A stretch of 64,000 nucleotides of DNA, taken from NCBI GenBank assembly GCA_964596255.1, contig CAZQTT010000001.1, positions 20,327-84,326 of the forward strand, read 5' to 3'. This document shows positions 1,815 through 64,000 of the stretch, piece after piece. How positions within the stretch are numbered: the first letter of the stretch is position 1; each line of letters starts with the position of its first letter. The translations under genes were made by a program, and so were the position numbers. The DNA is from an uncultured archaeon. GTDB lineage: Archaea; Halobacteriota; Archaeoglobi; Archaeoglobales; Archaeoglobaceae. The notes under the pieces were generated by a model. It had not been told where the DNA came from. It made no database searches and saw nothing but the letters and a program-made list of their open reading frames with translations.

Positions 1815-1909
1815 CCCGCCTTAGCTCAGTGGCAGAGCGTGCGGCTGTAGTTTGTGACTTCTGCCATGCAGAAACCGCATGGTCCCCGGTTCAAATCCGG
1901 GAGGCGGGA
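1815..1909 (+). tRNA. tRNA-Tyr(GUA) with a 23-nt intron at the canonical 37/38 position
   Basis: Hand-folded cloverleaf. Acceptor stem CCCGCCT/AGGCGGG, with C1-G72, the archaeal Tyr identity pair. D stem GCTC/GAGC. Anticodon stem TGCGG/CCGCA with loop CTGTAG..A. T arm CCCGG-TTCAAAT-CCGGG. Discriminator A. Exons total 72 nt; the intron is 1851-1873. An oligo-T tract follows at 1910-1921. Confidence 0.85.
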
Positions 1910-41694: not shown

Positions 41695-42180
41695 ATGCCC
41701 CGAAAACCTGAGAAGGAACCGGTTAAGTGGTTAACAGTTGAGGAGTTAAATAAAGAGATTCAGAATAAGAAGGTGTGTGCTGAGATACTGAGAAGACTTG
41801 TTTTCGTAAAACAGCTCTATAAGGGGTGGAGTGTTCCTCAGGCAGCTGAGGAAGTGGGTGTTAGCAAGGTGATTGGTTATGAATGGCTTGAGAGGTGGAA
41901 TAAAAAGGGTTTAGATGGTTTGGAGCCCAACTACGGTGGTGGTAGGCCTCCTGACCTCTCTCTGGATGAGAAGGAGGAGCTTAAAGAGATCTTGAGTGAG
42001 AGGGATGATTGGAGCACTAAGGGTGTTAAGCACCTCATTAAAGAGGAGTTCGGAGTTGATTACTCTGAGAGGCATGTGAACAGATTGCTGAAGGAGTTTG
42101 GGTTGAAGCATGCCAAGCCCTATCAAAACGACTACAGGAAACCTGAGAACGCCGACGAAGACCTTAAAAAAACTTCATGA
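41695..42180 (+). CDS. IS630 transposase, N-terminal HTH part (orfA)
   Basis: Winged-helix/HTH segments (GWSVPQAAEEVGVSKVIGYEWLERW). It ends just after the A7 run at 42166-42172. Confidence 0.85.
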   Translation: MPRKPEKEPVKWLTVEELNKEIQNKKVCAEILRRLVFVKQLYKGWSVPQAAEEVGVSKVIGYEWLERWNKKGLDGLEPNYGGGRPPDLSLDEKEELKEILSERDDWSTKGVKHLIKEEFGVDYSERHVNRLLKEFGLKHAKPYQNDYRKPENADEDLKKTS

Positions 42181-42727
42181 GGGACTGAAAGAAGTCTTAC
42201 AGGAGAGTCCGCATTGCATAATTGGTTTCATGGATCAGACCTCACCTCAGCTCACAGCGAACACTCAGAGACTGTGGTCCTTCACCAAACCCAAAGTAAA
42301 GAAGAACACCACCAAGATCAAGGCTAACGCATTCGGCTTCTACACCATAAACGGAGAAAACGTGCTCGACTTCAAGGAGAACTCCAAGAAAGAGTGTGTC
42401 TGCGAATTCCTGGAGAAGATAAGGCTAAAGAATCCAAGTAAACCCATCATACTCATCCTAGATAATTTCAAGTCACACTGGGCCAAAGCCACCAGAGAGA
42501 AAGCCCAAGAACTGAACATCCACCTAGTGTTCCTACCACCATACTCCCCAGACCTGAACCCCATAGAATACATCTGGAAAAGCATAAAAAAAGAAATCTC
42601 ACCCAAACTCATCAAAACCCTGAATGAACTAAAAGACATTATCTCAAAGAACTTCTACAAATTCAGCCAGAAAATCAGCTTCGCCAGAAGATGGATCGAA
42701 AAAATCCTAGTTAGTTTAGTTAACTAA
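42110..42727 (+). CDS. IS630 transposase, DDE catalytic part (orfB, +1 frame)
   Basis: IGFMDQT, ILILDNFKSH and PPYSPDLNPIEYIWKSIKKE form a DDE triad of the Tc1/IS630 type. Confidence 0.85.
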   Translation: MPSPIKTTTGNLRTPTKTLKKLHEGLKEVLQESPHCIIGFMDQTSPQLTANTQRLWSFTKPKVKKNTTKIKANAFGFYTINGENVLDFKENSKKECVCEFLEKIRLKNPSKPIILILDNFKSHWAKATREKAQELNIHLVFLPPYSPDLNPIEYIWKSIKKEISPKLIKTLNELKDIISKNFYKFSQKISFARRWIEKILVSLVN

Positions 42728-43077: not shown

Positions 43078-43324
43078 CCTTAACGGATAACATCATCCTG
43101 AATAGTGATGCTGACCAGATAAAATTAATCCCGAATATACATTATTATATTCTGGTTGCGAAGAAATAAAACACTTAACTCACTATCTTGGATAACAGAA
43201 CTTCGTTACTTAATTTAGTACCGTATTAAAGTTTCATATTGTTTTAAGTACATAAAATCTTATTCTTTTTAGGATCAAGGCGAAAGGAGGAATCATATGT
43301 TTATTCGGGTTTGGGTGGTTGAAA

Positions 43325-43909
43325 ATGAGGATTGAGATATTAGTTTTGGCTGTTTGTATTTTGTTCCTGGGTCTAACTTCAGTTATGGCAAATCCAACGC
43401 TGGACTGGTCTATTGAAACCATCGATTCTGATAGAAACGTAGGTGGGTTTACTTCAATTGCTCTGGATTCTTCTGGCTATCCTCACATAAGCTATCATAA
43501 CTGGAGTGATGGGTTGAAATATGCTAAGTAGAACGGTACCGGATGGGACATACAGACTGTCGACTCTGATGGAAATGTAGGTTTTACTTCAATTGCTCTG
43601 GAATCCTCCGGTGCTCCTCACATAAGCTATCATAACTATACTAATGGGGGTTTAGGATATGCTAAGTGGACAGGAGCTACATGGGACATACAGACTGTCG
43701 ACTCTGATGGAAATGTAGGTTTTACTTCAATTGCTCTGGATTCTTCTGGCTATCCTCACATAAGCTATCATAACGGTACTACTGGGAGTTTGAAATACGC
43801 AACATTAGCTTCTGCTCCTACTGAAGTACCGAACCTTACGCCAGTAGGACTAATAGCCCTGACGGGCTCACTTGGATTAGTTACTGTGATTATGCTAAGA
43901 AGACGTTAA
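43325..43909 (+). pseudogene. Secreted repeat protein with a VPxxxP-type C-terminal sorting signal, interrupted by an in-frame TAG
   Basis: Signal peptide MRIEILVLAVCILFLGLTSVMA. Three ~46-aa repeats (W.I.T.DSD.NVGFTSIALDSSGYPHISYHN). TAG at 43529-43531 sits where the next repeat has Trp (TGG). The C-terminus is VPNLTP, a TM helix and RRR. Confidence 0.7.
43544..43785. repeat. 138-bp-period tandem repeat inside the secreted repeat gene
   Basis: TGGGACATACAGACTGTCGACTCTGATGGAAATGTAGGTTTTACTTCAATTGCTCTGGA occurs identically at 43544 and 43682. Confidence 0.85.
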
Positions 43910-55579: not shown

Positions 55580-55837
55580 TCAGGTCTGGTCTCTATTATT
55601 GTATTTTTCCAAGACGGCGTTGAACAGTTTCTCTCTTGCTTCTTTTGATATGGGGTGGAAGATGTCCCTGTAGGTGTCGTTCTTGCGGTCATATCTGCTG
55701 GGCATAGCCACCCAAAGACCATCATTCCCTTCCATAACCTTCAGGCCATGAATAGCGTATTCGTCATCCAAAACTACGTCTGCAAAAGCTTTTTGCTGTC
55801 CAGATCCACCAGATCCACTAAATTCAAATATTCTCAC
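55580..55837 (-). CDS. spoVG: SpoVG-family protein
   Basis: KAFADVVLDDEYAIHGLKVMEGNDGLWVAMPSR...YRDIFHPISKEAREKLFNAVLEKY aligns along its length with bacterial SpoVG as I recall it (..[35 protein letters not shown]..Y). Confidence 0.7.
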   Translation of the reverse strand: MRIFEFSGSGGSGQQKAFADVVLDDEYAIHGLKVMEGNDGLWVAMPSRYDRKNDTYRDIFHPISKEAREKLFNAVLEKYNNRDQT

Positions 55838-55891
55838 ATATTACCATATTTTTTAAAAAATTTTAAATACTATGCTAATTAATATTATATT

Positions 55892-56470
55892 ATGAGGAAA
55901 AAAGGAGGAAAGGAAAAGAGTTTAAAAGCACAGAAGACCAGTGAAGGCAAGTATAAGTATAAGATGGTTGGTGTTTTAACAGAAAACGGAGAGAAAGGAA
56001 TATGGAAGACGGAGGCTGAAAAAGAGGGCGTACCTTTATCGGAGTTTGTGAGAGATGCGGTAAATGCCAGAATAATGGACATAAGACCAGCCAAAGATAC
56101 ATTGACAGATACAGGAGAGTTAGATAGATTAAAGCAGGAAAATCAAAGGCTTGAGAAAGAGAAAAGAGAACTAAGCGAAGAAGTTGAGAAGCTAAAACAG
56201 GAGCTTTCTATTCTCAGGGATGCTTACACCAGCAAAACCGGGGATTGGTTAGATAAGATATTGGCAGTCATTCCAGAGGATGGATACAAGAAGCCACGAG
56301 ACATTTTGATTGATGCTGGATTAATCAAGGAATGGTCAAGTGATGAAGAGTGGTATGAAGCTCAACAGCGATTTCAAGATGAGATTAGAGAGTTTAGTGA
56401 GAAGTGCGAGAAAGAGGGAAAGCCATTCCCGTTAATCTATACGGAGGGTCGAGGATGGAAGCACAAGTAA
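55892..56470 (+). CDS. Hypothetical protein with an RHH-like segment and a coiled coil
   Basis: GVPLSEFVRDAVNARIMD is CopG-like. A leucine-zipper-like stretch ELDRLKQENQRLEKEKRELSEEVEKLKQEL follows. Confidence 0.5.
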   Translation: MRKKGGKEKSLKAQKTSEGKYKYKMVGVLTENGEKGIWKTEAEKEGVPLSEFVRDAVNARIMDIRPAKDTLTDTGELDRLKQENQRLEKEKRELSEEVEKLKQELSILRDAYTSKTGDWLDKILAVIPEDGYKKPRDILIDAGLIKEWSSDEEWYEAQQRFQDEIREFSEKCEKEGKPFPLIYTEGRGWKHK

Positions 56471-57315
56471 TGGTAAAGGATTATATAGATAGATTGGAGG
56501 AAGTAGGGAAGGCAGAAACTACTATTAACACTTACGGGCAAACATTATCAAGTTTCATTAAGTTCCTCGATGGAAAACCTTTGGATGAGGTCAAAGAGCG
56601 AGATATTCGAAGGTTCTTGAAGAAAGATGGTGAGTTAAAGCCGAGAACTAAGAAAAGCTATTGCATACGGATTTTTAGATTTTATGAGTGGGTGATAGAA
56701 GAGGAAGAGTTGAATATTAAGAACCCAGCTAAGAAAATCAGAGAGGAAATTAACGGTAGCAATGGACATGAAGAAGAGAAAGAGGTTCTATCAGTCGAGG
56801 AAGTAAGGAAACTAATCCAGTCAATAGAGAGTCCGAGAAAAAAGGCAATGCTCTTGGTTCTTTATAAATCTGGTATGAGATGTATGGAGTTAAAGAACCT
56901 GGATAAATCTGATGTGGATTTTGACACAGGGAAAATAATAATAAAGCGAAGGAAAGGCGGTAAGAGAGGGTATGTTTTTGTGGACGACGAGGCTCTTAAA
57001 TGGCTTAAGTTTTATCTCTCAACGAGATGGGACGACCATGAAGCATTGTTCACATGCAGTAAGGGAAGGATAACCAGACACAATTTGAGCAAGACAATTA
57101 TAGAAACGTTAAAAAAAGCAGGTTACGAAGGTTTAACGGCTCATGACTGGAGACACATATTCACAACGCACATGAGGCAAGCTGGATGTGACCTTGAAGT
57201 GATTAGAGTATTGAGGGGCGATTCTCCAGGAAACATGACTGAATACTATACGCATTACAGTGAGGAGGACATCAGGACAGAGTATTTGAGATGTGTCCCC
57301 CGCTTATACGTCTGA
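56455..57315 (+). CDS. Tyrosine recombinase/integrase (XerC/D-phage integrase family)
   Basis: SAM-like N-terminal domain. Catalytic residues lie in SGMRCMEL (Arg), HDWRHIF (His-x-x-Arg) and the YYTHY region (Tyr). The start is 56455 or 56470 (TAATG overlap). Confidence 0.85.
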   Translation: MEAQVMVKDYIDRLEEVGKAETTINTYGQTLSSFIKFLDGKPLDEVKERDIRRFLKKDGELKPRTKKSYCIRIFRFYEWVIEEEELNIKNPAKKIREEINGSNGHEEEKEVLSVEEVRKLIQSIESPRKKAMLLVLYKSGMRCMELKNLDKSDVDFDTGKIIIKRRKGGKRGYVFVDDEALKWLKFYLSTRWDDHEALFTCSKGRITRHNLSKTIIETLKKAGYEGLTAHDWRHIFTTHMRQAGCDLEVIRVLRGDSPGNMTEYYTHYSEEDIRTEYLRCVPRLYV

Positions 57316-57483
57316 ACTAAATTTTTTTCTTGCTCCTATTAATATAATTAAATTCACTATCCTGTTTCATTTAGTAGTTATGTAAACTATTATTTTATAG
57401 TAAATCGAGAAAACTATATATTAGCAAATTTATTATTATTATGGGCAAAGGTAAAGCACCTAAGCCCGAAAGAGGTGATAAAA

Positions 57484-57912
57484 ATGGCGGAAGAAAAGAA
57501 CAAGCAGGAAGTAGATGTGTTTGAGGTTGTGGATGGTGTAGAGGATGTTGGAACCCTCAAAGAGCTCCAGCAGTTAATTAATGGCAAGATTGACGAGTTG
57601 AGGAAAGCCAACGCGAAACCCTGGAAGAAGGCATCGTTTAAAATGTTCTGGAACAAAACAAGCGAGGATGTCCAGCGATTAGTGCTTCAATTGGCAGAGA
57701 ATGGTGGTAGTGCTTACAAGGAAGACTTACTCGAAAAAATGGATTGGGAACAGATGAAGTTAACCGGTATGTTGGCTGGTGTCAGTAACAAAGCAAGGAA
57801 CATGGGTTATAAAGACATAGTAACCAGAGAGAACGTCAAGGACGAAGATGGTAACTGGCATGTTCAATATAAACTTGATGAAGACATCCAGAAGTTTATT
57901 AAGGAACTATAA
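57484..57912 (+). CDS. Hypothetical protein
   Basis: ORF with AGAGG 8 nt upstream of the ATG at 57484. No motif recognised. Confidence 0.5.
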   Translation: MAEEKNKQEVDVFEVVDGVEDVGTLKELQQLINGKIDELRKANAKPWKKASFKMFWNKTSEDVQRLVLQLAENGGSAYKEDLLEKMDWEQMKLTGMLAGVSNKARNMGYKDIVTRENVKDEDGNWHVQYKLDEDIQKFIKEL

Positions 57913-57941
57913 GTCCTTTATTTCTTTTTTTGGTGGTTGAG

Positions 57942-58082
57942 ATGGGAAAGTGCTTGTGGTGTGGTAAAGAGACTGATTACGATTGGTGCTGTGAAGAACA
58001 TAGACGCTGTTTAAAGTGTGGCAATAAACTTGAGCCTGAAGACGACATTTACTGTATTCTGTGTTCTATGGGGGTAAAATAA
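57942..58082 (+). CDS. Zinc-ribbon mini-protein (46 aa)
   Basis: Found by hand translation, below the track cutoff. MGKCLWCGKE..CCEEHRRCLKCGNK..YCILC. The stop overlaps the next ATG (TAATG). Confidence 0.55.
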   Translation: MGKCLWCGKETDYDWCCEEHRRCLKCGNKLEPEDDIYCILCSMGVK

Positions 58083-58207
58083 TGTATTGCTGCCAAGAAT
58101 GCGGTTATAGATTTAATACGATTGAAGAAGCCATAGAAGCTTTTCACTCAGATGAGGGTTGTCCAGAGTGCGGGAGCACAGATATTGATTTATGTGAGGA
58201 ACCATGA
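58082..58207 (+). CDS. Zinc-ribbon mini-protein (41 aa)
   Basis: Found by hand translation. MYCCQECGYRF...GCPECGSTD. The stop overlaps the next ATG (ATGA). Confidence 0.55.
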   Translation: MYCCQECGYRFNTIEEAIEAFHSDEGCPECGSTDIDLCEEP

Positions 58208-58317
58208 ATAAAAGACGTTGGATATGCCGGAAGTGTGGTAAAGTAATCTTGAGCTCCGAGAAACCAAACGAACGTTGCAGGAAAGGACATATGTGTGAAT
58301 TTGAACGAGAGTTCTAA
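58204..58317 (+). CDS. Zinc-ribbon mini-protein (37 aa)
   Basis: Found by hand translation. MNKRRWICRKCGK...ERCRKGHMC. Confidence 0.5.
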   Translation: MNKRRWICRKCGKVILSSEKPNERCRKGHMCEFEREF

Positions 58318-58650
58318 ATTTTTTTCTCGAATCGGCGTATACCAAATTTTAAACCGGTATGATAAGTTTCGGTTCAACGATATATTGTTGGTCATCTTTA
58401 TCGTAAATCTTCGATAGGAACCAGCATTACATTGGTGCCTTTTTATGGTGATGAGTCAGCATGGGGGGGTTCGAGGACTCGAAAATGATGAGTGATTAAA
58501 AGAACGATATCCTTCAATAACTCAAAATTTTATTTTGTTTCCTTCGATTAGGAAGTCAAATATAAGCTGTCCTTCAATAACTTATAGGCGACAACCAAAT
58601 ATTTATACTTCTATTAACATAATATTTATAATAATAAAGAGGTTGCTATA

Positions 58651-58845
58651 ATGAAGTGCAAAAAGTGTGGTTACGAATGGCAGAACAGGGTTCCGAATCC
58701 AAAGCAGTGTCCTGCTTGTAAGAATCCACTGAAGAAGTCAAAGAAGCCTAAACCAGATACCAACTGTAAATTCTGTAATCATAAGTGGAAAAAGCGAGTG
58801 AATTCGCCGAAACAATGCCCGAGTTGTCATCGTTATTTGAGATAA
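58651..58845 (+). CDS. Double zinc-ribbon protein (64 aa)
   Basis: Two internal repeats: CKKCGYEWQNRVPNPKQCPACKN and CKFCNHKWKKRVNSPKQCPSCHR. Confidence 0.65.
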   Translation: MKCKKCGYEWQNRVPNPKQCPACKNPLKKSKKPKPDTNCKFCNHKWKKRVNSPKQCPSCHRYLR

Positions 58846-58863
58846 GTATTGGAGATGTAAAAA

Positions 58864-59046
58864 ATGAAGGAATTTAATATAGATATAAGAGAAGGTGAGA
58901 AGCTCATTTACACGATAGAAGTTAAAGTGCATTATAATGACGAAGAGCCCGAGTTTAGTGATGTCTTTGAGAAAATGGCTGAGTTTCTGAACATAGGATT
59001 TCAAGACAACGGTGTACAGCGAGAGTTCAGCATGGAAGTAGCATGA
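58864..59046 (+). CDS. Hypothetical protein (60 aa)
   Basis: ORF tightly packed between neighbours, with a 4-nt overlap with the next gene. Confidence 0.45.
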   Translation: MKEFNIDIREGEKLIYTIEVKVHYNDEEPEFSDVFEKMAEFLNIGFQDNGVQREFSMEVA

Positions 59047-59639
59047 CTTCTGAAGTGCTTGAGCAAATTATTGAGGTTCTTAGAGAAGAGGAACCACTCG
59101 GAAGTCCACAGATAGCGGAGAAGATAGGAGTACCAACGCAATGCGTAGCACAAGTGGTTAGACATGGTAGTGGAGTTCATCAATATAAGGGGATGTATTT
59201 CGCCAGTGAGCGTAACTTGCAAATTTACAAGATAAAGGAGATCCTAAAGAAGGAAGAACCATTGAAAGCTCGTGAGATTGCTGAGAGGCTTGGAAGAGAA
59301 ACTAATTCCGTATCAAAGATAATACGTCACCACGGAGAGGGTATTAAAAGTCGTAAAGGTAAGTATGCTCTCAACCCCGATAAATTGCCGGAGGAAGGCG
59401 ATAAATACGAGTGTCCTTACTGTTATGAGATTGTAGAAGATTTTAGGGGTTTTGTAAAACACATTAATAAGAACCACAACCATGGTACGTGCCCTGTTTG
59501 TGGAAAGAAGTGCAGAGAACTGGAAATACACGCAGTAAAGAAGTCAGAACGCTGTGAGGAACATTATTTGTATTATGGTTTGATTAGTAGAACAGACCAG
59601 GAGGCAAGGCAGTATGCAGAGGAATATTGTCGGTGCTAG
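59043..59639 (+). CDS. Putative DNA-binding protein: two winged-helix-like repeats plus a C2H2/C4 zinc finger
   Basis: Duplicated segment (EEPLGSPQIAEKIGVPTQCVAQVVRHG / EEPLKAREIAERLGRETNSVSKIIRHHG). Then CPYC..H..H and CPVCGKKC. Confidence 0.6.
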   Translation: MTSEVLEQIIEVLREEEPLGSPQIAEKIGVPTQCVAQVVRHGSGVHQYKGMYFASERNLQIYKIKEILKKEEPLKAREIAERLGRETNSVSKIIRHHGEGIKSRKGKYALNPDKLPEEGDKYECPYCYEIVEDFRGFVKHINKNHNHGTCPVCGKKCRELEIHAVKKSERCEEHYLYYGLISRTDQEARQYAEEYCRC

Positions 59640-59646
59640 AAATTAT

Positions 59647-59736
59647 ATGTGCCCATATTGTCGCTATACGTGGCAGGATAGGGCAGAGCCGATGGAATGC
59701 CCCAATTGTGGTGGTAAGTTCAAGAAATCACGATGA
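59647..59736 (+). CDS. Zinc-ribbon mini-protein (29 aa)
   Basis: Found by hand translation. MCPYCRYTWQDRAEPMECPNCGG resembles the repeats of the 64-aa protein. Confidence 0.45.
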   Translation: MCPYCRYTWQDRAEPMECPNCGGKFKKSR

Positions 59737-59990
59737 AAAAACCTCCTATTGCCGGAGCCGGGTTTTTTCACCTCCACCCTTTTTTCCCCGGCAATGATGG
59801 TTGGAGTCCAGATATTCTTTAAATAAAACTTTTTTCTTTATCTGAAAGAAGACTGATATGTTTCTTTTTAATCACTCGTTGAAGGACAGTGAATATTTTG
59901 TTCTGGTGAAAAATTGGTCTCCACTCGACAAAAACCTTCTAATAATCAAACTAACAATTTTATATTAACAGATATAAAGGATGGTGAAAA

Positions 59991-60332
59991 ATGAAGACGA
60001 GAAGTGGTAAATTCGAAAAGAAACTCCAATCAATGCCAGTAGGGAACTATGATTATTACTTCATTCATGTTCCACAAGGTTGGAGGAGAAGATTAGATTT
60101 GGGTCAAGGAAGTCTCGTAGGATTCGATATGAAGGAACGTAAAATCATTGTCAAACCTGAGATAAATAAGAACCTAGAAATCAAGAAATTACAGATGAGG
60201 GGAAATCAGGGATACATTTTTTTGCCAATCAAGTGGTGCAGAGAGAACAATTTGAAGAAAGGAGACATTATGACCACAGAATTTTCGGAGGACTCTGATG
60301 ACTTGATTATTGAGATTGATAAACAGGAGTGA
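59991..60332 (+). CDS. Tandem AbrB/SpoVT-like domain protein
   Basis: Two swapped-hairpin-like halves: YYFIHVPQGWRRRLDLGQGSLVGFD and GYIFLPIKWCRENNLKKGDIMTTEF. Confidence 0.55.
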   Translation: MKTRSGKFEKKLQSMPVGNYDYYFIHVPQGWRRRLDLGQGSLVGFDMKERKIIVKPEINKNLEIKKLQMRGNQGYIFLPIKWCRENNLKKGDIMTTEFSEDSDDLIIEIDKQE

Positions 60333-60337
60333 TTACA

Positions 60338-60739
60338 ATGAGTGAAGTGGAAATTCCAGTGGAAGCCAAAGAATACGTTGAGTACTATGTTGATATCTTG
60401 GTTGAGAGAGGATTCGATAGAGAAGCTATTATGGGAGAAATATACACTATTGCTGAGCATCCAAAAATAAAGGAGTCATTCAGTTCGAGTAAAGGAGCTT
60501 GGGAATACGCGACACGACTTGTCTGGAACAGAAATTTGAGGACCTGTAAGGAGTGTAAATTTGCAGTTCGAAATAGAGAACTTGAGAAGGGAGGAGAGAT
60601 ATACTGCTGGGTTTCACAGACCCAAGAAAATTACTATACTGCGCCTAAGTGCTTTTATTACTTCAATAAAGACAATGTGGATGAGAACACGATTAAAAGA
60701 GCATTATACGAACTGATTAAAGCACGGAGGAAGAGATGA
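60338..60739 (+). CDS. Hypothetical protein with a CxxC...C motif
   Basis: ORF with AGGAG 8 nt upstream of the ATG at 60338. The track start at 60329 is a GTG. Confidence 0.5.
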   Translation: MSEVEIPVEAKEYVEYYVDILVERGFDREAIMGEIYTIAEHPKIKESFSSSKGAWEYATRLVWNRNLRTCKECKFAVRNRELEKGGEIYCWVSQTQENYYTAPKCFYYFNKDNVDENTIKRALYELIKARRKR

Positions 60740-62043
60740 GTGAAGAAGTAGATGACGTTGATAAGTTTATTGATGGAGTAAACGATGATGAAAACCTAGT
60801 TGACGAGATAGAGAACGAGTTAATAGACAAAAAAATATCCAGGAACCGCAAATATGCCAGACTCGCAGCACTCCATTTAGTTGCTGTTTATACTCCAAAT
60901 TTAGTGGTCGTTACTACTTATGGACCTTTAAAAACCAATATCTACGTAATTTACATAGGACCGAGTAGAATTGGAATGAAATCTGTCGTAATAAACTTCA
61001 TAAGAGAATTACTCAAAATGGACGAATATGATAGGAAAATAAAGAAGAGAATACCACCAAGCGGTTCACTTGAGGGAATTACAATGTATATGAACTGGGA
61101 CCATCCAGATGGAACAGCTTTTGGTTCTATGCTTAAGGATGAATGCTCTCTGATGTTCGAGCAATTGAAGAAGACATATTCTTCTGATTTTATGGAGACT
61201 TTCTCATTGATGTATGACGGTCATATAGAGGGTAAAGTCACGAGAAGTTATAAATTAGAAGAAGTAGAAAATTGTCATGTATCCTTTTTTGGAGCCAGCA
61301 CAAAGACTTTTTACCGGAAAATGCCGATTGACTATTTTGACCAGGGGATTGGAAATAGACCCTTCTATTGTTTATGGAACGGAAAGACACCAAAGTTTGA
61401 TAATCCAGAAGAAGCTTTTAGAAGTCGACAGGCGTGGACTAATAGAGTATACGATATTATCAAAAAATTACGAGAATGTGAGAAGTTTACAGAGGCTGGA
61501 ATAGCACATGAAGCTATGGAATTATGGTGGGAGTACCATGAAGAAGAAATGAAGGAAGCAGAGAAACTATATCACAGCAGTGAACCACTAACAGATTATT
61601 ATTCATCATATAGAGGGGGTAATCCTGAGAGAGTTTTAAAGGTGGCAATGCTTAGGAGTGTTGGAGATAACTATAAAAAAGACTTAGATACCATAATTAT
61701 CGAAAAGGAACATATAGAGTACGCTATTAAAGTGGTGAACGAATACTATGAAGAATACAAACAAATGGTGAGAGATTGGATTAAAGTATCTCAAGAGAAA
61801 GTAGAGCCAATAGAGAACATCCAACCAGCAGAAAGTAATGTATTGTCTGCTATAGAGAGGAATGCTGATTCTTTTGGTTGGTCTAAGCGTGGAGACGTTA
61901 TGAGAGTTGTTGGTGGTACAGCAAAGAATTTTGATAACATTATTGAGACGTTGAAAGAGAAAGAATTCATAGTAGAATGTGATGATTCTTACTTTGGTCA
62001 AACAAAACCAGGTCCTAAGACCACATACTACAAGTGTCTCTAA
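60736..62043 (+). CDS. DUF3987-like protein (candidate replication/helicase-type protein of the element)
   Basis: The layout IYIGPSRIGMKSVV...SLEGITMYM...MLKDECSLMF...LMYDGHIEGKVTRS...VSFFGAST...GIGNRPFY resembles the DUF3987 order of motifs. The P-loop-like site is non-canonical. Confidence 0.45.
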   Translation: MSEEVDDVDKFIDGVNDDENLVDEIENELIDKKISRNRKYARLAALHLVAVYTPNLVVVTTYGPLKTNIYVIYIGPSRIGMKSVVINFIRELLKMDEYDRKIKKRIPPSGSLEGITMYMNWDHPDGTAFGSMLKDECSLMFEQLKKTYSSDFMETFSLMYDGHIEGKVTRSYKLEEVENCHVSFFGASTKTFYRKMPIDYFDQGIGNRPFYCLWNGKTPKFDNPEEAFRSRQAWTNRVYDIIKKLRECEKFTEAGIAHEAMELWWEYHEEEMKEAEKLYHSSEPLTDYYSSYRGGNPERVLKVAMLRSVGDNYKKDLDTIIIEKEHIEYAIKVVNEYYEEYKQMVRDWIKVSQEKVEPIENIQPAESNVLSAIERNADSFGWSKRGDVMRVVGGTAKNFDNIIETLKEKEFIVECDDSYFGQTKPGPKTTYYKCL

Positions 62044-63958
62044 TTTTTTTATTTTATGCAAATCTAATTATTGGGGATTCCCAACAATTATCCAATATTT
62101 ATGAAGAAGTATGAGACTTCTATTCCGTAAACCAAGCTCTATAGAACCTTAAACTAATTATTTGTTGGGAAGTCCATACTCAAACCCAACAATTCTTTTC
62201 TACTCTTATTAATTATTTTTATATTATTTATCTAATTATTGGATATATTTTCCAATAACCAACAAACAATTAGAAAAAGGAAGGAGATTTAGTAAATTTC
62301 TTTTTTAAGACAGGACAGAACTTGAGATTGTTGAGAATGTCTTCAATAATTATTACGAAGGATTCATTACTGAGCATCACCGAATTACTCAACGTATTCT
62401 TATTATAATTTTAATCCAATACCTCACCTAATTGTATCTTACGAGAGTTGGTAGCAGACTCCATATAATGAAATCTGTCGTAATAAACTTCATAAGAGAA
62501 TTACTCAAAATGGACGAATATGATAGGAAAATAAAGAAGAGAATACCACCAAGCGGTTCACTTGAGGGAATTACAATGTATATGAACTGGGACCATCCAG
62601 ATGGAACAGCTTTTGGTTCTATGCTTAAGGATGAATGCTCTCTGATGTTCGAGCAATTGAAGAAGACATATTCTTCTGATTTTATGGAGACTTTCTCATT
62701 GATGTATGACGGTCATATAGAGGGTAAAGTCACGAGAAGTTATAAATTAGAAGAAGTAGAAAATTGTCATGTATCCTTTTTTGGAGCCAGCACAAAGACT
62801 TTTTACCGGAAAATGCCGATTGACTATTTTGACCAGGGGATTGGAAATAGACCCTTCTATTGTTTATGGAACGGAAAGACACCAAAGTTTGATAATCCAG
62901 AAGAAGCTTTTAGAAGTCGACAGGCGTGGACTAATAGAGTATACGATATTATCAAAAAATTACGAGAATGTGAGAAGTTTACAGAGGCTGGAATAGCACA
63001 TGAAGCTATGGAATTATGGTGGGAGTACCATGAAGAAGAAATGAAGGAAGCAGAGAAACTATATCACAGCAGTGAACCACTAACAGATTATTATTCATCA
63101 TATAGAGGGGGTAATCCTGAGAGAGTTTTAAAGGTGGCAATGCTTAGGAGTGTTGGAGATAACTATAAAAAAGACTTAGATACCATAATTATCGAAAAGG
63201 AACATATAGAGTACGCTATTAAAGTGGTGAACGAATACTATGAAGAATACAAACAAATGGTGAGAGATTGGATTAAAGTATCTCAAGAGAAAGTAGAGCC
63301 AATAGAGAACATCCAACCAGCAGAAAGTAATGTATTGTCTGCTATAGAGAGGAATGCTGATTCTTTTGGTTGGTCTAAGCGTGGAGACGTTATGAGAGTT
63401 GTTGGTGGTACAGCAAAGAATTTTGATAACATTATTGAGACGTTGAAAGAGAAAGAATTCATAGTAGAATGTGATGATTCTTACTTTGGTCAAACAAAAC
63501 CAGGTCCTAAGACCACATACTACAAGTGTCTCTAATTTTTTTATTTTATGCAAATCTAATTATTGGGGATTCCCAACAATTATCCAATATTTATGAAGAA
63601 GTATGAGACTTCTATTCCGTAAACCAAGCTCTATAGAACCTTAAACTAATTATTTGTTGGGAAGTCCATACTCAAACCCAACAATTCTTTTCTACTCTTA
63701 TTAATTATTTTTATATTATTTATCTAATTATTGGATATATTTTCCAATAACCAACAAACAATTAGAAAAAGGAAGGAGATTTAGTAAATTTCTTTTTTAA
63801 GACAGGACAGAACTTGAGATTGTTGAGAATGTCTTCAATAATTATTACGAAGGATTCATTACTGAGCATCACCGAATTACTCAACGTATTCTTATTATAA
63901 TTTTAATCCAATACCTCACCTAATTGTATCTTACGAGAGTTGGTAGCAGACTCCATAT
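60975..63958. repeat. Perfect tandem direct duplication, 2 x 1,492 bp
   Basis: Copy 1 is 60975-62466 and copy 2 is 62467-63958. Identical ORF translations recur at a +1492 offset (61277/62769 and 61684/63176). The non-coding parts are identical by eye. The trinucleotide AAT is present at the start of copy 1, at the junction and after copy 2. Confidence 0.9.
62467..63535 (+). pseudogene. 5'-truncated duplicate of the DUF3987-like gene
   Basis: Identical to codons about 81-435 of the 60736-62043 gene. The track ORF (62432) gains 12 unrelated N-terminal residues from the upstream non-coding DNA. Confidence 0.7.
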
Positions 63959-64000
63959 AATAATATCTTACCGCATACATCGGATGAGAAAAGCAAAAAA

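What the first reader, a model, noticed from the sequence alone, without database searches (positions are those of the whole stretch)
60975..63961. Perfect 1,492-bp tandem duplication that starts inside the P-loop-like site of the DUF3987-like gene
Copy 1 (60975-62466) and copy 2 (62467-63958) appear identical. Translations of forward and reverse ORFs recur at exactly +1492, and the 423-bp non-coding tail matches by eye. The duplicated unit runs from the codons for ..IG/MKSVV.. of the 435-aa gene to 423 bp past its stop. Copy 2 therefore carries a 5'-truncated gene, which still reads as a 367-aa ORF because of a chance upstream ATG, plus a second copy of the iteron-rich region. The same trinucleotide AAT is present at the start of copy 1, at the junction and after copy 2. 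That microhomology is consistent with replication slippage or illegitimate recombination. Zero divergence implies a very recent event, an amplification under selection (for example origin or copy-number effects), or an assembly artefact.
Basis: seen in the sequence. Interest (0 to 1): 0.65.

Follow-up and report, generated by a model that had tools for sequence, protein, structure and literature searches.

The report
Recent tandem duplication in archaeal mobile element
A 1.5-kb stretch (most of a replication-helicase gene plus the repeat-rich DNA after it) is present twice, head to tail and letter-perfect, inside a mobile element integrated in an uncultured Archaeoglobaceae genome; the junction is backed by one independent per-run assembly and missing from another, so it looks like an ordinary, very young structural variant rather than a pure assembly error.

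Summary
Window 60975-62466 and 62467-63958 are identical (0/1492 mismatches), and AAT recurs at the start, at the junction and at the end.

The unit starts between G80 and M81 of a 435-aa DUF3987-like, MCM-like AAA+ helicase. That point lies inside the family's Walker-A-like motif IGPSxxxxKS. The unit ends 423 bp past the stop, in an AT-rich region of about 800 bp that carries a cluster of an 11-nt motif.

Two independent Logan (k=31) assemblies of sibling runs give new evidence:
- **SRR7048220:** a contig runs straight through with one copy.
- **SRR7048218:** I predicted, then found, a 1,495-bp contig identical to 60975-62469. In my simulation, that piece appeared only in the scenarios where an end-to-start junction coexists with the flanks.

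The junction is therefore most likely real in the reads and differs between samples. Whether there are exactly two chromosomal copies, more copies, or one copy plus a free 1,492-bp circle cannot be told without read coverage or long reads.

None of 64 related loci shows such a repeat. This is a microhomology-mediated short-junction duplication, which is a known kind of event. No benefit or function was shown for it. Interest is low to moderate.

The parts
60975..62466 (+). Copy 1 of the 1,492-bp unit. It holds codons 81-435 of the helicase gene plus the 423-bp non-coding tail.
   Evidence: It is identical to 62467-63958. Logan contig L009 from SRR7048218 equals 60975-62469 exactly.
62467..63958 (+). 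Copy 2 of the unit.
   Evidence: 0 mismatches over 1492 against copy 1. It is missing from Logan contig L001 (SRR7048220), which goes from 62469 straight to 63962.
62467..62469 (.). Junction microhomology AAT. It also occurs at 60975-60977 and 63959-63961. The extended homeology is AATGAAATCT against AATAATATCT (8 of 10).
   Evidence: Read directly from the sequence. BLAST extends the repeat to 1502 nt with 2 mismatches.
60736..62043 (+). Intact 435-aa DUF3987-like, MCM-like AAA+ helicase with a C-terminal winged-helix domain. It is the presumed replication protein of the element.
   Evidence: Pfam DUF3987 scores 25.9 bits, just under the cutoff of 27, and 28 of 30 relatives match it. phrog_3022 'DNA primase', C-terminal part, gives 3.8e-12. 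phmmer finds 280 relatives, mostly about 410-490 aa among the 150 listed. The AF2 model has pLDDT 88 and Foldseek's top hits are MCM subunits.
60955..60984 (+). Walker-A-like motif IGPSRIGMKS (residues 74-83). The duplication breakpoint lies between G80 and M81.
   Evidence: Alignment A1 gives the consensus IGPSGxAxKS, with S77 and K82 invariant. In the model, beta-strand 70-74 is followed by the loop and then helix 82-100.
62468..63535 (+). 5'-truncated helicase copy (residues 81-435, 355 aa). The ORF can be read from TTG at 62432 (367 aa). The database gene call runs from M95 at 62510 (341 aa). It lacks the N-terminal helices, beta1 and the GPS part of the P-loop.
62044..62466 (.). Non-coding AT-rich tail, copy 1. 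It holds a cluster of the motif CTAATTATTGG (7 sites with up to 2 mismatches, both orientations, 62064-62353). It is a candidate protein-binding or origin region, untested.
   Evidence: There are 7 sites in 290 bp against 22 in the other roughly 61 kb. GC is 0.33 for window 62001-64000. Repeats are listed.
63536..63958 (.). Non-coding tail, copy 2, with the motif cluster at 63556-63845.
55840..64000 (+). Integrated mobile element that contains the duplication. The left end is at about 55,840, just upstream of spoVG. The right end lies beyond the window. Contents: an Arc/RHH-like protein (192 aa), a tyrosine integrase (56404-57315), wHTH and zinc-finger proteins, an AbrB/MazE-like protein (59991-60332), a 136-aa ORF and the helicase.
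   Evidence: Pfam and PHROG hits. Synteny with three related Archaeoglobaceae MAGs stops at 55837-55839, and none of them encodes the element's proteins.

Best explanation
This is a genuine, very recent, microhomology-mediated ('short-junction') tandem duplication. It arose inside the replication module of a mobile element integrated in an uncultured Archaeoglobaceae chromosome.

The likely mechanism is inferred from the junction anatomy. A nascent strand or a broken end at ...CCATAT-AAT(A)A(T)ATCT, in the non-coding region after the helicase gene, re-paired 1,492 bp upstream at ...TTGG-AAT(G)A(A)ATCT inside the helicase gene. This could be replication slippage, template switching, or unequal sister-chromatid joining. 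That segment was then copied a second time.

The intact 435-aa gene survives. The event adds a promoter-less, P-loop-less 5'-truncated copy and a second copy of the repeat-rich tail. The variant is carried by the population sampled in run SRR7048218 and is absent or rare in sibling run SRR7048220. The 'two copies' in the contig are the minimal way for an assembler to traverse the resulting loop, so the true copy number is at least 2 but has not been measured.

No function or benefit was shown for the duplication. The default reading is a transient variant that homologous recombination between the perfect repeats will remove again.
For: Shown:
- The repeat is exact and AAT recurs at the start, the junction and the end. 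The homeology extends to 8 of 10.
- Logan contig SRR7048220_65050 (L001) is 100% identical to the window, holds one copy and runs through both boundaries.
- I predicted that a run whose reads hold the junction would give a k=31 graph piece equal to 60975-62469, with a 355-aa edge gene starting MKSVV. The look-up found exactly that in SRR7048218 (L009, 1,495 bp, identical).
- The simulation gives the 1,495-bp piece in the three scenarios tested where an end-to-start junction coexists with the flanks. One copy alone gives a single contig, a deletion variant gives 1,549 bp, and a lone circle gives 1,522 bp.
- In Logan contigs every 31-mer occurs once, and Minia3 applies SPAdes-like clean-up (PMC12424806).
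- The gene is continuous and family-typical across the left boundary, so the unit is not an insertion.
- None of 64 related loci has such a repeat.

Inferred: the slippage or template-switch mechanism, transience, and lack of selection.
Against: - No read coverage, read pairs or long reads were available. Two copies on one DNA molecule is therefore not demonstrated.
- The same assembly graph arises from one chromosomal copy plus a free 1,492-bp circle (scenario 4).
- The organism appears to be at low coverage in both runs, judging from Logan contigs of only 1.5-3.4 kb. The missing junction in SRR7048220 could therefore be a drop-out. My rough estimate is a few percent chance of this if the duplication were fixed there.
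- The window's source contig (89,782 bp) may have been built from the same reads as L009. The two assemblies are then independent in method but not necessarily in data.
- A spontaneous neutral duplication reaching assemblable frequency in a natural population is somewhat unexpected. That leaves room for selection or a clonal bloom.
Confidence: 0.62

Rival explanations
1. There is one integrated copy plus a free 1,492-bp circle made of the unit. The circle could be a recombination 'pop-out' product or a small replicon carrying the repeat-rich tail and the truncated helicase gene. The tandem arrangement in the contig would then come from the assembler walking the loop, not from a chromosomal structure.
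For: Simulation scenario 4 gives exactly the same graph pieces as a tandem duplication, including the 1,495-bp piece. The unit holds the motif cluster next to the replication gene, the usual place for an origin. Relatives of the helicase occur on small circular elements; for example, L026 is about 7.24 kb with 123-bp terminal overlap.
Against: A circle joined at a 3-bp microhomology needs a prior illegitimate event anyway. Origin activity of the tail is unproven, and a long gap after the helicase gene is not conserved in the family (median 89 bp). The truncated helicase lacks beta1 and half of the P-loop, so replication would depend on the intact copy acting in trans. A non-replicating pop-out circle would be far too rare to be assembled.
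Confidence: 0.12
2. The duplication is an amplification kept by selection. Extra copies of the origin or binding-site cluster, or of a truncated and possibly dominant-negative helicase, would change the element's replication, copy number or incompatibility. The true copy number may exceed two.
For: The variant reached a frequency high enough to shape the assembly graph of one run. The unit contains the motif cluster. It also has an ORF retaining the M81 ATG, the Walker-B-like DE and the winged helix.
Against: There is no coverage data and no evidence that copy 2 is expressed. It loses the translational coupling of the native gene, whose ATG overlaps the upstream ORF at 60736-60739. The duplication is absent from the sibling run and from 64 related loci. 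Zero divergence is equally expected for a neutral variant that is days to years old.
Confidence: 0.14
3. The junction is artefactual. Chimeric library molecules (for example from whole-genome amplification or PCR template switching at the AAT...ATCT patch), or a mis-join, created the junction, and both assemblers inherited it from the same reads.
For: The single-copy contig in SRR7048220. The source contig and L009 may share their reads. The variant is not seen anywhere else.
Against: Logan discards k-mers seen only once and removes weak connections. Even so, the graph of SRR7048218 stays split at both boundaries to the base. Random chimeras do not recur at one junction. A de Bruijn assembler cannot invent a junction from a 3-bp overlap.
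Confidence: 0.1

Closest known systems
RecA-independent 'short-junction' tandem duplications in prokaryotes (microhomology-mediated; replication slippage or template switching; the duplication-amplification literature on Salmonella and E. coli). This comparison rests on general knowledge; no paper was consulted here.
   Same: Head-to-tail copies, a junction with only a few bases of homology (AAT; 8 of 10 when extended), no divergence between copies, presence in only part of the population, and expected instability through recombination between the copies.
   Different: It sits in an integrated mobile element of an uncultured archaeon. One breakpoint cuts the Walker-A site of the element's helicase gene. 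Copy number and frequency have not been measured.
Loops in short-read assembly graphs (a repeat unit shared by two paths, traversed a minimal number of times by the assembler)
   Same: The per-run Logan graph shows the unit as a separate 1,495-bp piece bounded by branches. 'Two copies' is the smallest traversal that uses the junction.
   Different: The junction itself is not produced by the assembler. It has to be present in the reads.
DUF3987 (PF13148) P-loop proteins of plasmids, phages and integrated elements. These are often the C-terminal helicase part of primase-helicase fusions (phrog_3022).
   Same: Walker-A-like and Walker-B-like motifs and a similar length. 28 of 30 closest relatives match PF13148. 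phrog_3022 gives 3.8e-12.
   Different: This protein scores 25.9 bits, just below Pfam's cutoff of 27. No primase domain is fused to it or recognised nearby. The closest relative is only 31% identical.
MCM-type AAA+ replicative helicases
   Same: The predicted fold (pLDDT 88) matches the MCM ATPase core plus a C-terminal winged helix (Foldseek E down to 2e-7, probability 1.0).
   Different: TM-score is only about 0.45 relative to the query. There is no MCM N-terminal OB-fold or zinc domain, and no sequence-level match to any PDB chain. This is a resemblance, not family membership.
Iteron-type plasmid origins placed next to the rep gene
   Same: An AT-rich non-coding stretch directly after the replication gene, with a repeated short motif.
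   Different: The motif is 11 nt long, occurs in both orientations and is irregularly spaced, unlike 17-22-bp direct repeats in phase. No replication data exist. The arrangement is not conserved among relatives.

Membership tests
Tandem duplication (real, in the DNA) | Two adjacent head-to-tail copies in the sequence | tested here: met
   60975-62466 equals 62467-63958, with 0 mismatches over 1492.
Tandem duplication (real, in the DNA) | The end-to-start junction is supported by data or an assembly other than the contig itself | tested here: met
   I predicted a 1,495-bp graph piece and found it in SRR7048218 (L009 = 60975-62469). In the simulation this piece appeared only in the scenarios with the junction present alongside the flanks. 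Caveat: the reads may be shared with the source assembly.
Tandem duplication (real, in the DNA) | Both copies lie on one molecule between the same flanks, shown by spanning long reads, PCR or a 2x coverage ratio | not testable with these tools
   No reads or coverage values were available. A free circle plus a single copy gives the same graph.
Short-junction (microhomology-mediated) duplication | Only a few bases of identity at the two parental breakpoints, and no long repeat or IS element there | tested here: met
   AAT is shared, or 8 of 10 when extended. No other repeat of significance lies at the breakpoints.
Assembly artefact (junction absent from real DNA) | Independent assemblies lack the junction and run through with one copy | tested here: inconclusive
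   This holds for SRR7048220 (L001) but not for SRR7048218, where the graph is split at both boundaries.
Transposable element or insertion (3-bp AAT as target-site duplication) | The unit interrupts otherwise continuous host sequence | tested here: not met
   The helicase reading frame and its homology to 30 relatives run uninterrupted across the left boundary at residues 80/81. The unit encodes no transposase.
DUF3987 (PF13148) | Score at or above Pfam's gathering threshold | tested here: not met
   25.9 bits against a cutoff of 27, E = 7e-6. However, 28 of 30 aligned relatives match the family, best E = 8.3e-18, so it is best described as a divergent relative.
DUF3987 (PF13148) | P-loop NTPase motifs (Walker A lysine/serine and Walker B acidic pair) | tested here: met
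   K82 and S83, and D135 and E136, fall in conserved columns; K82, D135 and E136 are invariant in A1. In the model they sit on the beta1-loop-helix and on strand 129-135.
MCM family | N-terminal OB-fold/zinc domain plus an AAA+ core with sequence-level homology | tested here: not met
   Only the AAA+ core and the winged helix align structurally (TMq about 0.45). A profile search against PDB sequences finds nothing.
Iteron-type replication origin | Three or more direct repeats of about 17-22 bp in regular phase | tested here: not met
   The motif is 11 nt, has 7 sites in mixed orientation and is irregularly spaced.
Iteron-type replication origin | Supports replication, or is bound by the Rep protein | not testable with these tools
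   This needs an ARS/plasmid-maintenance assay or an EMSA.

The most novel reading that the evidence does not exclude
The 1,492-bp unit is not just a chromosomal duplicate. It would be a self-contained module (binding-site/origin cluster plus a P-loop-less helicase) that is amplified, or excised as a mini-circle, from the integrated element. It would then act on the element's replication, for example as an origin decoy (incompatibility determinant), as a dominant-negative helicase limiting or blocking replication of the element or related invaders, or as a defective-interfering mini-replicon using the intact helicase in trans. Its rise in one sample and absence in a sibling sample would then reflect selection.
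Probability: 0.08. Interest if true: 0.6.

Novelty: new member of a known kind. Interest (0 to 1): 0.25.

Why it matters
As it stands, the main value is practical. The doubled segment in this contig should not be read as two fixed genes. The second 'gene' (341-367 aa) is a truncated by-product, and the contig's copy number is an assembler choice.

The finding also catches a microhomology-mediated duplication 'in the act' in a natural population of an uncultured thermophile-lineage archaeon. It further flags a poorly known family of MCM-like DUF3987 helicases carried by small integrative archaeal elements.

It would matter more if coverage or long reads showed amplification, or a free mini-circle carrying the candidate origin. 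That would give a handle on how such elements control replication.

Tried and rejected
- **Tandem Repeats Finder:** no result, because its longest period is 500.
- **Searches for the same or related sequence with the 435-aa protein:** IMG/VR, JGI metagenome contigs and GTDB genome contigs gave nothing. tblastn against annotated plasmids and phages gave no match. The word-indexed protein search returned only the window's own second copy.
- **Exact look-ups of the copy-2 products:** neither the 341-aa P0001 nor the 367-aa ORF is on record elsewhere.
- **Look-up of the downstream 63-aa gene (P0151):** I hoped to catch the predicted downstream contig of SRR7048218 starting at 63932. Only L001 was returned.
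- **Paper searches:** SRR7048220, SRP141376 and the prefix SRR70482 returned nothing, so the sample context stays unknown.
- **Rfam:** nothing in the region.
- **PDB sequence profile search:** nothing.
- **Hypothesis: the unit is a transposon with an AAT target-site duplication.** Rejected, because the gene and its family homology are continuous across the left boundary.
- **Hypothesis: L009 reflects a deletion variant or a lone circle.** Rejected by simulation, which gives 1,549 bp and 1,522 bp against the observed 1,495 bp.
- **Hypothesis: duplication at this gene is a family trait.** Rejected, 0 of 64 related loci.
- **Hypothesis: a long AT-rich gap after the helicase is a conserved origin position.** Not supported: the median gap is 89 bp and only 6 of 45 reach 300 bp.
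- **Sigma-70 promoter and terminator scan:** uninformative for an archaeon.
- **Failed or empty calls:** one search printed nothing. One search failed because alignment A1 was too diverse for a metagenome scan; I repeated it with A2.
Full report
**1. The observation**

Window 60975-62466 and 62467-63958 are identical at all 1,492 positions. The period-1,492 match cannot be extended to the left of 60975. It runs 3 nt (AAT) further on the right, to 63961. The flanks read ...GAATTGG|AAT|GAAATC at the left boundary...CCATAT|AAT|GAAATC at the junction and ...CCATAT|AAT|AATATC at the right boundary. AAT is therefore shared by both parental breakpoints, and the next seven bases match at five positions (AATGAAATCT against AATAATATCT).

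A self-comparison of the whole window finds no other long repeat except a diverged 138-bp array at 43422-43797. Tandem Repeats Finder missed the duplication only because its longest period is 500.

**2. What is duplicated**

The unit lies in a block of genes that starts at about 55,840 and runs past the end of the window. The block contains:
- an Arc/RHH-like protein (192 aa);
- a tyrosine integrase (56404-57315; Phage_integrase, 1e-29);
- winged-helix and zinc-finger proteins;
- an AbrB/MazE-like protein;
- a 136-aa ORF;
- a 435-aa protein at 60736-62043.

The chromosome to the left (HflX, Hsp20, SpoVG) is 81-84% identical in DNA to three Archaeoglobaceae MAG contigs. Their similarity to the window stops at 55837-55839, and none of them encodes the block's proteins. 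This is therefore an integrated mobile element in an uncultured Archaeoglobaceae genome.

The 435-aa protein scores just under Pfam's threshold for DUF3987 (25.9 against 27 bits). It matches the C-terminal part of phrog_3022, annotated 'DNA primase' (3.8e-12). A full HMMER scan of 1.8 billion representative proteins finds 280 relatives. The closest is 31% identical, and most of the 150 listed are about 410-490 aa long. 28 of the 30 best match DUF3987.

The alignment shows a Walker-A-like motif IGPSGxAxKS (S77 and K82 invariant) and a Walker-B-like RDE (D135 and E136 invariant). An AlphaFold model (pLDDT 88) places strand 70-74, the loop and helix 82-100 as a classical beta1/P-loop/alpha1. It also shows a C-terminal winged helix. 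Foldseek's best PDB matches are MCM subunits (E down to 2e-7, TM about 0.45 on the query). A sequence-profile search of the PDB finds nothing.

A relative (P0018) sits on a 7,367-bp metagenome contig with identical 123-bp ends, meaning a circular element of about 7.24 kb. That element also encodes a tyrosine recombinase. Taken together, the protein is most likely the replication helicase or initiator of small integrative archaeal elements. This is an inference from homology and fold.

The right breakpoint lies 423 nt after the stop codon. In the single-copy contig L001, the non-coding region there is about 800 bp long and AT-rich, and it ends at a 63-aa AbrB-like gene.

The duplicated part of that region carries seven sites of the 11-nt motif CTAATTATTGG (up to 2 mismatches, both orientations) within 290 bp. 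The other roughly 61 kb of the window holds 22 such sites. This is a real cluster of probable protein-binding sites. It is not a classical iteron array, and a long gap after the helicase gene is not conserved in relatives (median 89 bp; 300 bp or more in 6 of 45).

Copy 2 encodes residues 81-435. The M81 ATG (62468-62470) straddles the junction. The gene call in the database for the source contig starts at M95 and gives 341 aa (P0001). This copy lacks the N-terminal helices, beta1 and the GPS half of the P-loop. It also loses the translational coupling of the native gene to the upstream ORF. It is probably inactive as an ATPase, which is an inference.

**3. Real or artefact?**

Logan assemblies of two sibling sequencing runs contain the same strain at 100% identity.

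In SRR7048220, contig 65050 (L001, 3,415 bp) equals window 60012-62469. It then continues directly with 63962-64000 and 918 further bases. That is one copy, running straight through both boundaries.

Logan contigs come from a k=31 de Bruijn graph in which every 31-mer occurs once. K-mers seen only once are discarded, and Minia3 performs SPAdes-like simplification (PMC12424806). From this I predicted the following. If the reads of a run contain the end-to-start junction, the unit must appear as a separate piece equal to the shared stretch 60975-62469, and its edge gene product must be the 355-aa peptide starting at MKSVV.

Looking up that peptide returned exactly one contig, SRR7048218_44689. 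It is 1,495 bp long and identical to 60975-62469.

A simulation of the k=31 graph gave these results:
- The 1,495-bp piece arises for a tandem duplication, for a mixture of one-copy and two-copy genomes, and for one copy plus a free circle of the unit.
- One copy alone gives a single contig.
- A deletion variant gives a 1,549-bp piece.
- A lone circle gives 1,522 bp.

The junction is therefore present in the reads of SRR7048218 and absent or rare in SRR7048220.

Two caveats apply. The window's contig may have been assembled from the same reads. Coverage also looks low (Logan contigs of 1.5-3.4 kb), so a chance drop-out of the junction in SRR7048220 cannot be excluded. My rough estimate for that is a few percent.

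**4. Mechanism**

The anatomy is that of a RecA-independent, short-junction duplication: head-to-tail copies, 3 bp of identity within an 8-of-10 patch, and no mobile-element ends. Slippage, template switching during replication, or unequal joining of sister chromatids would all fit.

The unit is not an insertion with an AAT target duplication. The helicase frame and its homology to relatives are continuous across the left boundary.

Zero divergence and the difference between sibling runs both indicate a very young variant. Perfect 1.5-kb direct repeats are expected to be lost again through homologous recombination. In a short-read graph, 'two copies' is simply the minimal traversal of the loop, so the true copy number is unknown.

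None of the 64 related loci from metagenomes and IMG/VR has a repeat of 80 bp or more at this gene. The duplication is therefore not a feature of the family.

**5. Rivals**

- **One copy plus a free 1,492-bp circle (0.12).** This gives an identical graph.
- **Selected amplification of the binding-site cluster or a dominant-negative helicase (0.14).** No evidence favours it beyond the variant's frequency in one run.
- **A chimeric-read artefact (0.10).** It is disfavoured because the split survives Logan's error removal at both boundaries to the base.

Read mapping, the Logan header abundances and links, or long reads would settle all three.

**6. Comparison and verdict**

This is a known kind of event, a microhomology-mediated tandem duplication that is polymorphic in a population. 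The setting is little studied: the replication module of an integrated element in an uncultured Archaeoglobaceae archaeon, which encodes a divergent DUF3987/MCM-like helicase.

- Its interpretation is partly supported and can be narrowed to 'recent and most likely real, with copy number unresolved'.
- Its wording on 'iterons' and the 'upstream ATG' needs correction.
- Interest is low to moderate (0.25).
- The most novel reading not excluded is an origin-plus-truncated-helicase module acting as a decoy or mini-replicon. I put its probability at about 0.08.

Noticed in passing
window 43422-43797: A diverged 138-bp tandem repeat, 2.7 copies at 82% match. It would encode 46-aa units (…DSDxNVGGFTSIALDSSGYPHISYHN…), but the longest ORF over it is only 70 aa (43319-43531), so the reading frame may be broken. 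This could be a decayed repeat-protein gene. A 205-aa ORF lies upstream at 42110-42727; by eye it looks like a DDE/IS630-type transposase, but I ran no family search.
   Followed up: partly
window 60369-60384 and 62386-62401 (also 63878-63893): A 16-nt exact inverted repeat. AAGAATACGTTGAGTA lies inside the 136-aa gene upstream of the helicase. Its complement lies in the duplicated non-coding tail, just before a TATA-like TTATTATAATTTTAA. My rough estimate of the chance expectation in 10 kb is about 0.01. It may be a shared operator or binding site (pairs I3/I4).
   Followed up: no
window 55837-55891; L004 12333-14248: Three related Archaeoglobaceae MAG contigs lose similarity to the window at the 5' end of spoVG and lack the element. 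One of them (L004) has a different 390-aa integrase-like gene (judged by eye; no family search was run) within about 1 kb of the same point. The region upstream of spoVG may be an integration hot spot with no tRNA gene nearby.
   Followed up: partly
L026 1-7367 (Ga0180300_10003588): A metagenome contig with identical 123-bp ends, meaning a circular element of about 7.24 kb. It encodes a 408-aa relative of the helicase (P0018), a 182-aa tyrosine recombinase (judged by eye; no family search was run), a small zinc-finger-like protein and several ORFs of unknown function. It may be a small archaeal virus or plasmid of the same replication-protein family.
   Followed up: partly
window 1815-1909: The tRNA-Thr(TGT) gene is 95 nt long, although the Rfam tRNA match covers the full 71-position model. 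It probably contains an intron, as is common in archaea.
   Followed up: no
window 60736-62043: The DUF3987-like protein models with high confidence (pLDDT 88) as an MCM-like AAA+ core plus a C-terminal winged helix. It has no sequence-level hit in the PDB. The DUF3987 family may thus be a stand-alone, OB-fold-less MCM-like helicase of mobile elements.
   Followed up: partly
window 62429-62442 and 63958-63971: An imperfect 14-nt direct repeat (TAATTGTATCTTAC and TAATAATATCTTAC, 37 bp apart in the single-copy sequence) lies at the right breakpoint. It adds local self-similarity that could favour misalignment (family D4).
   Followed up: no
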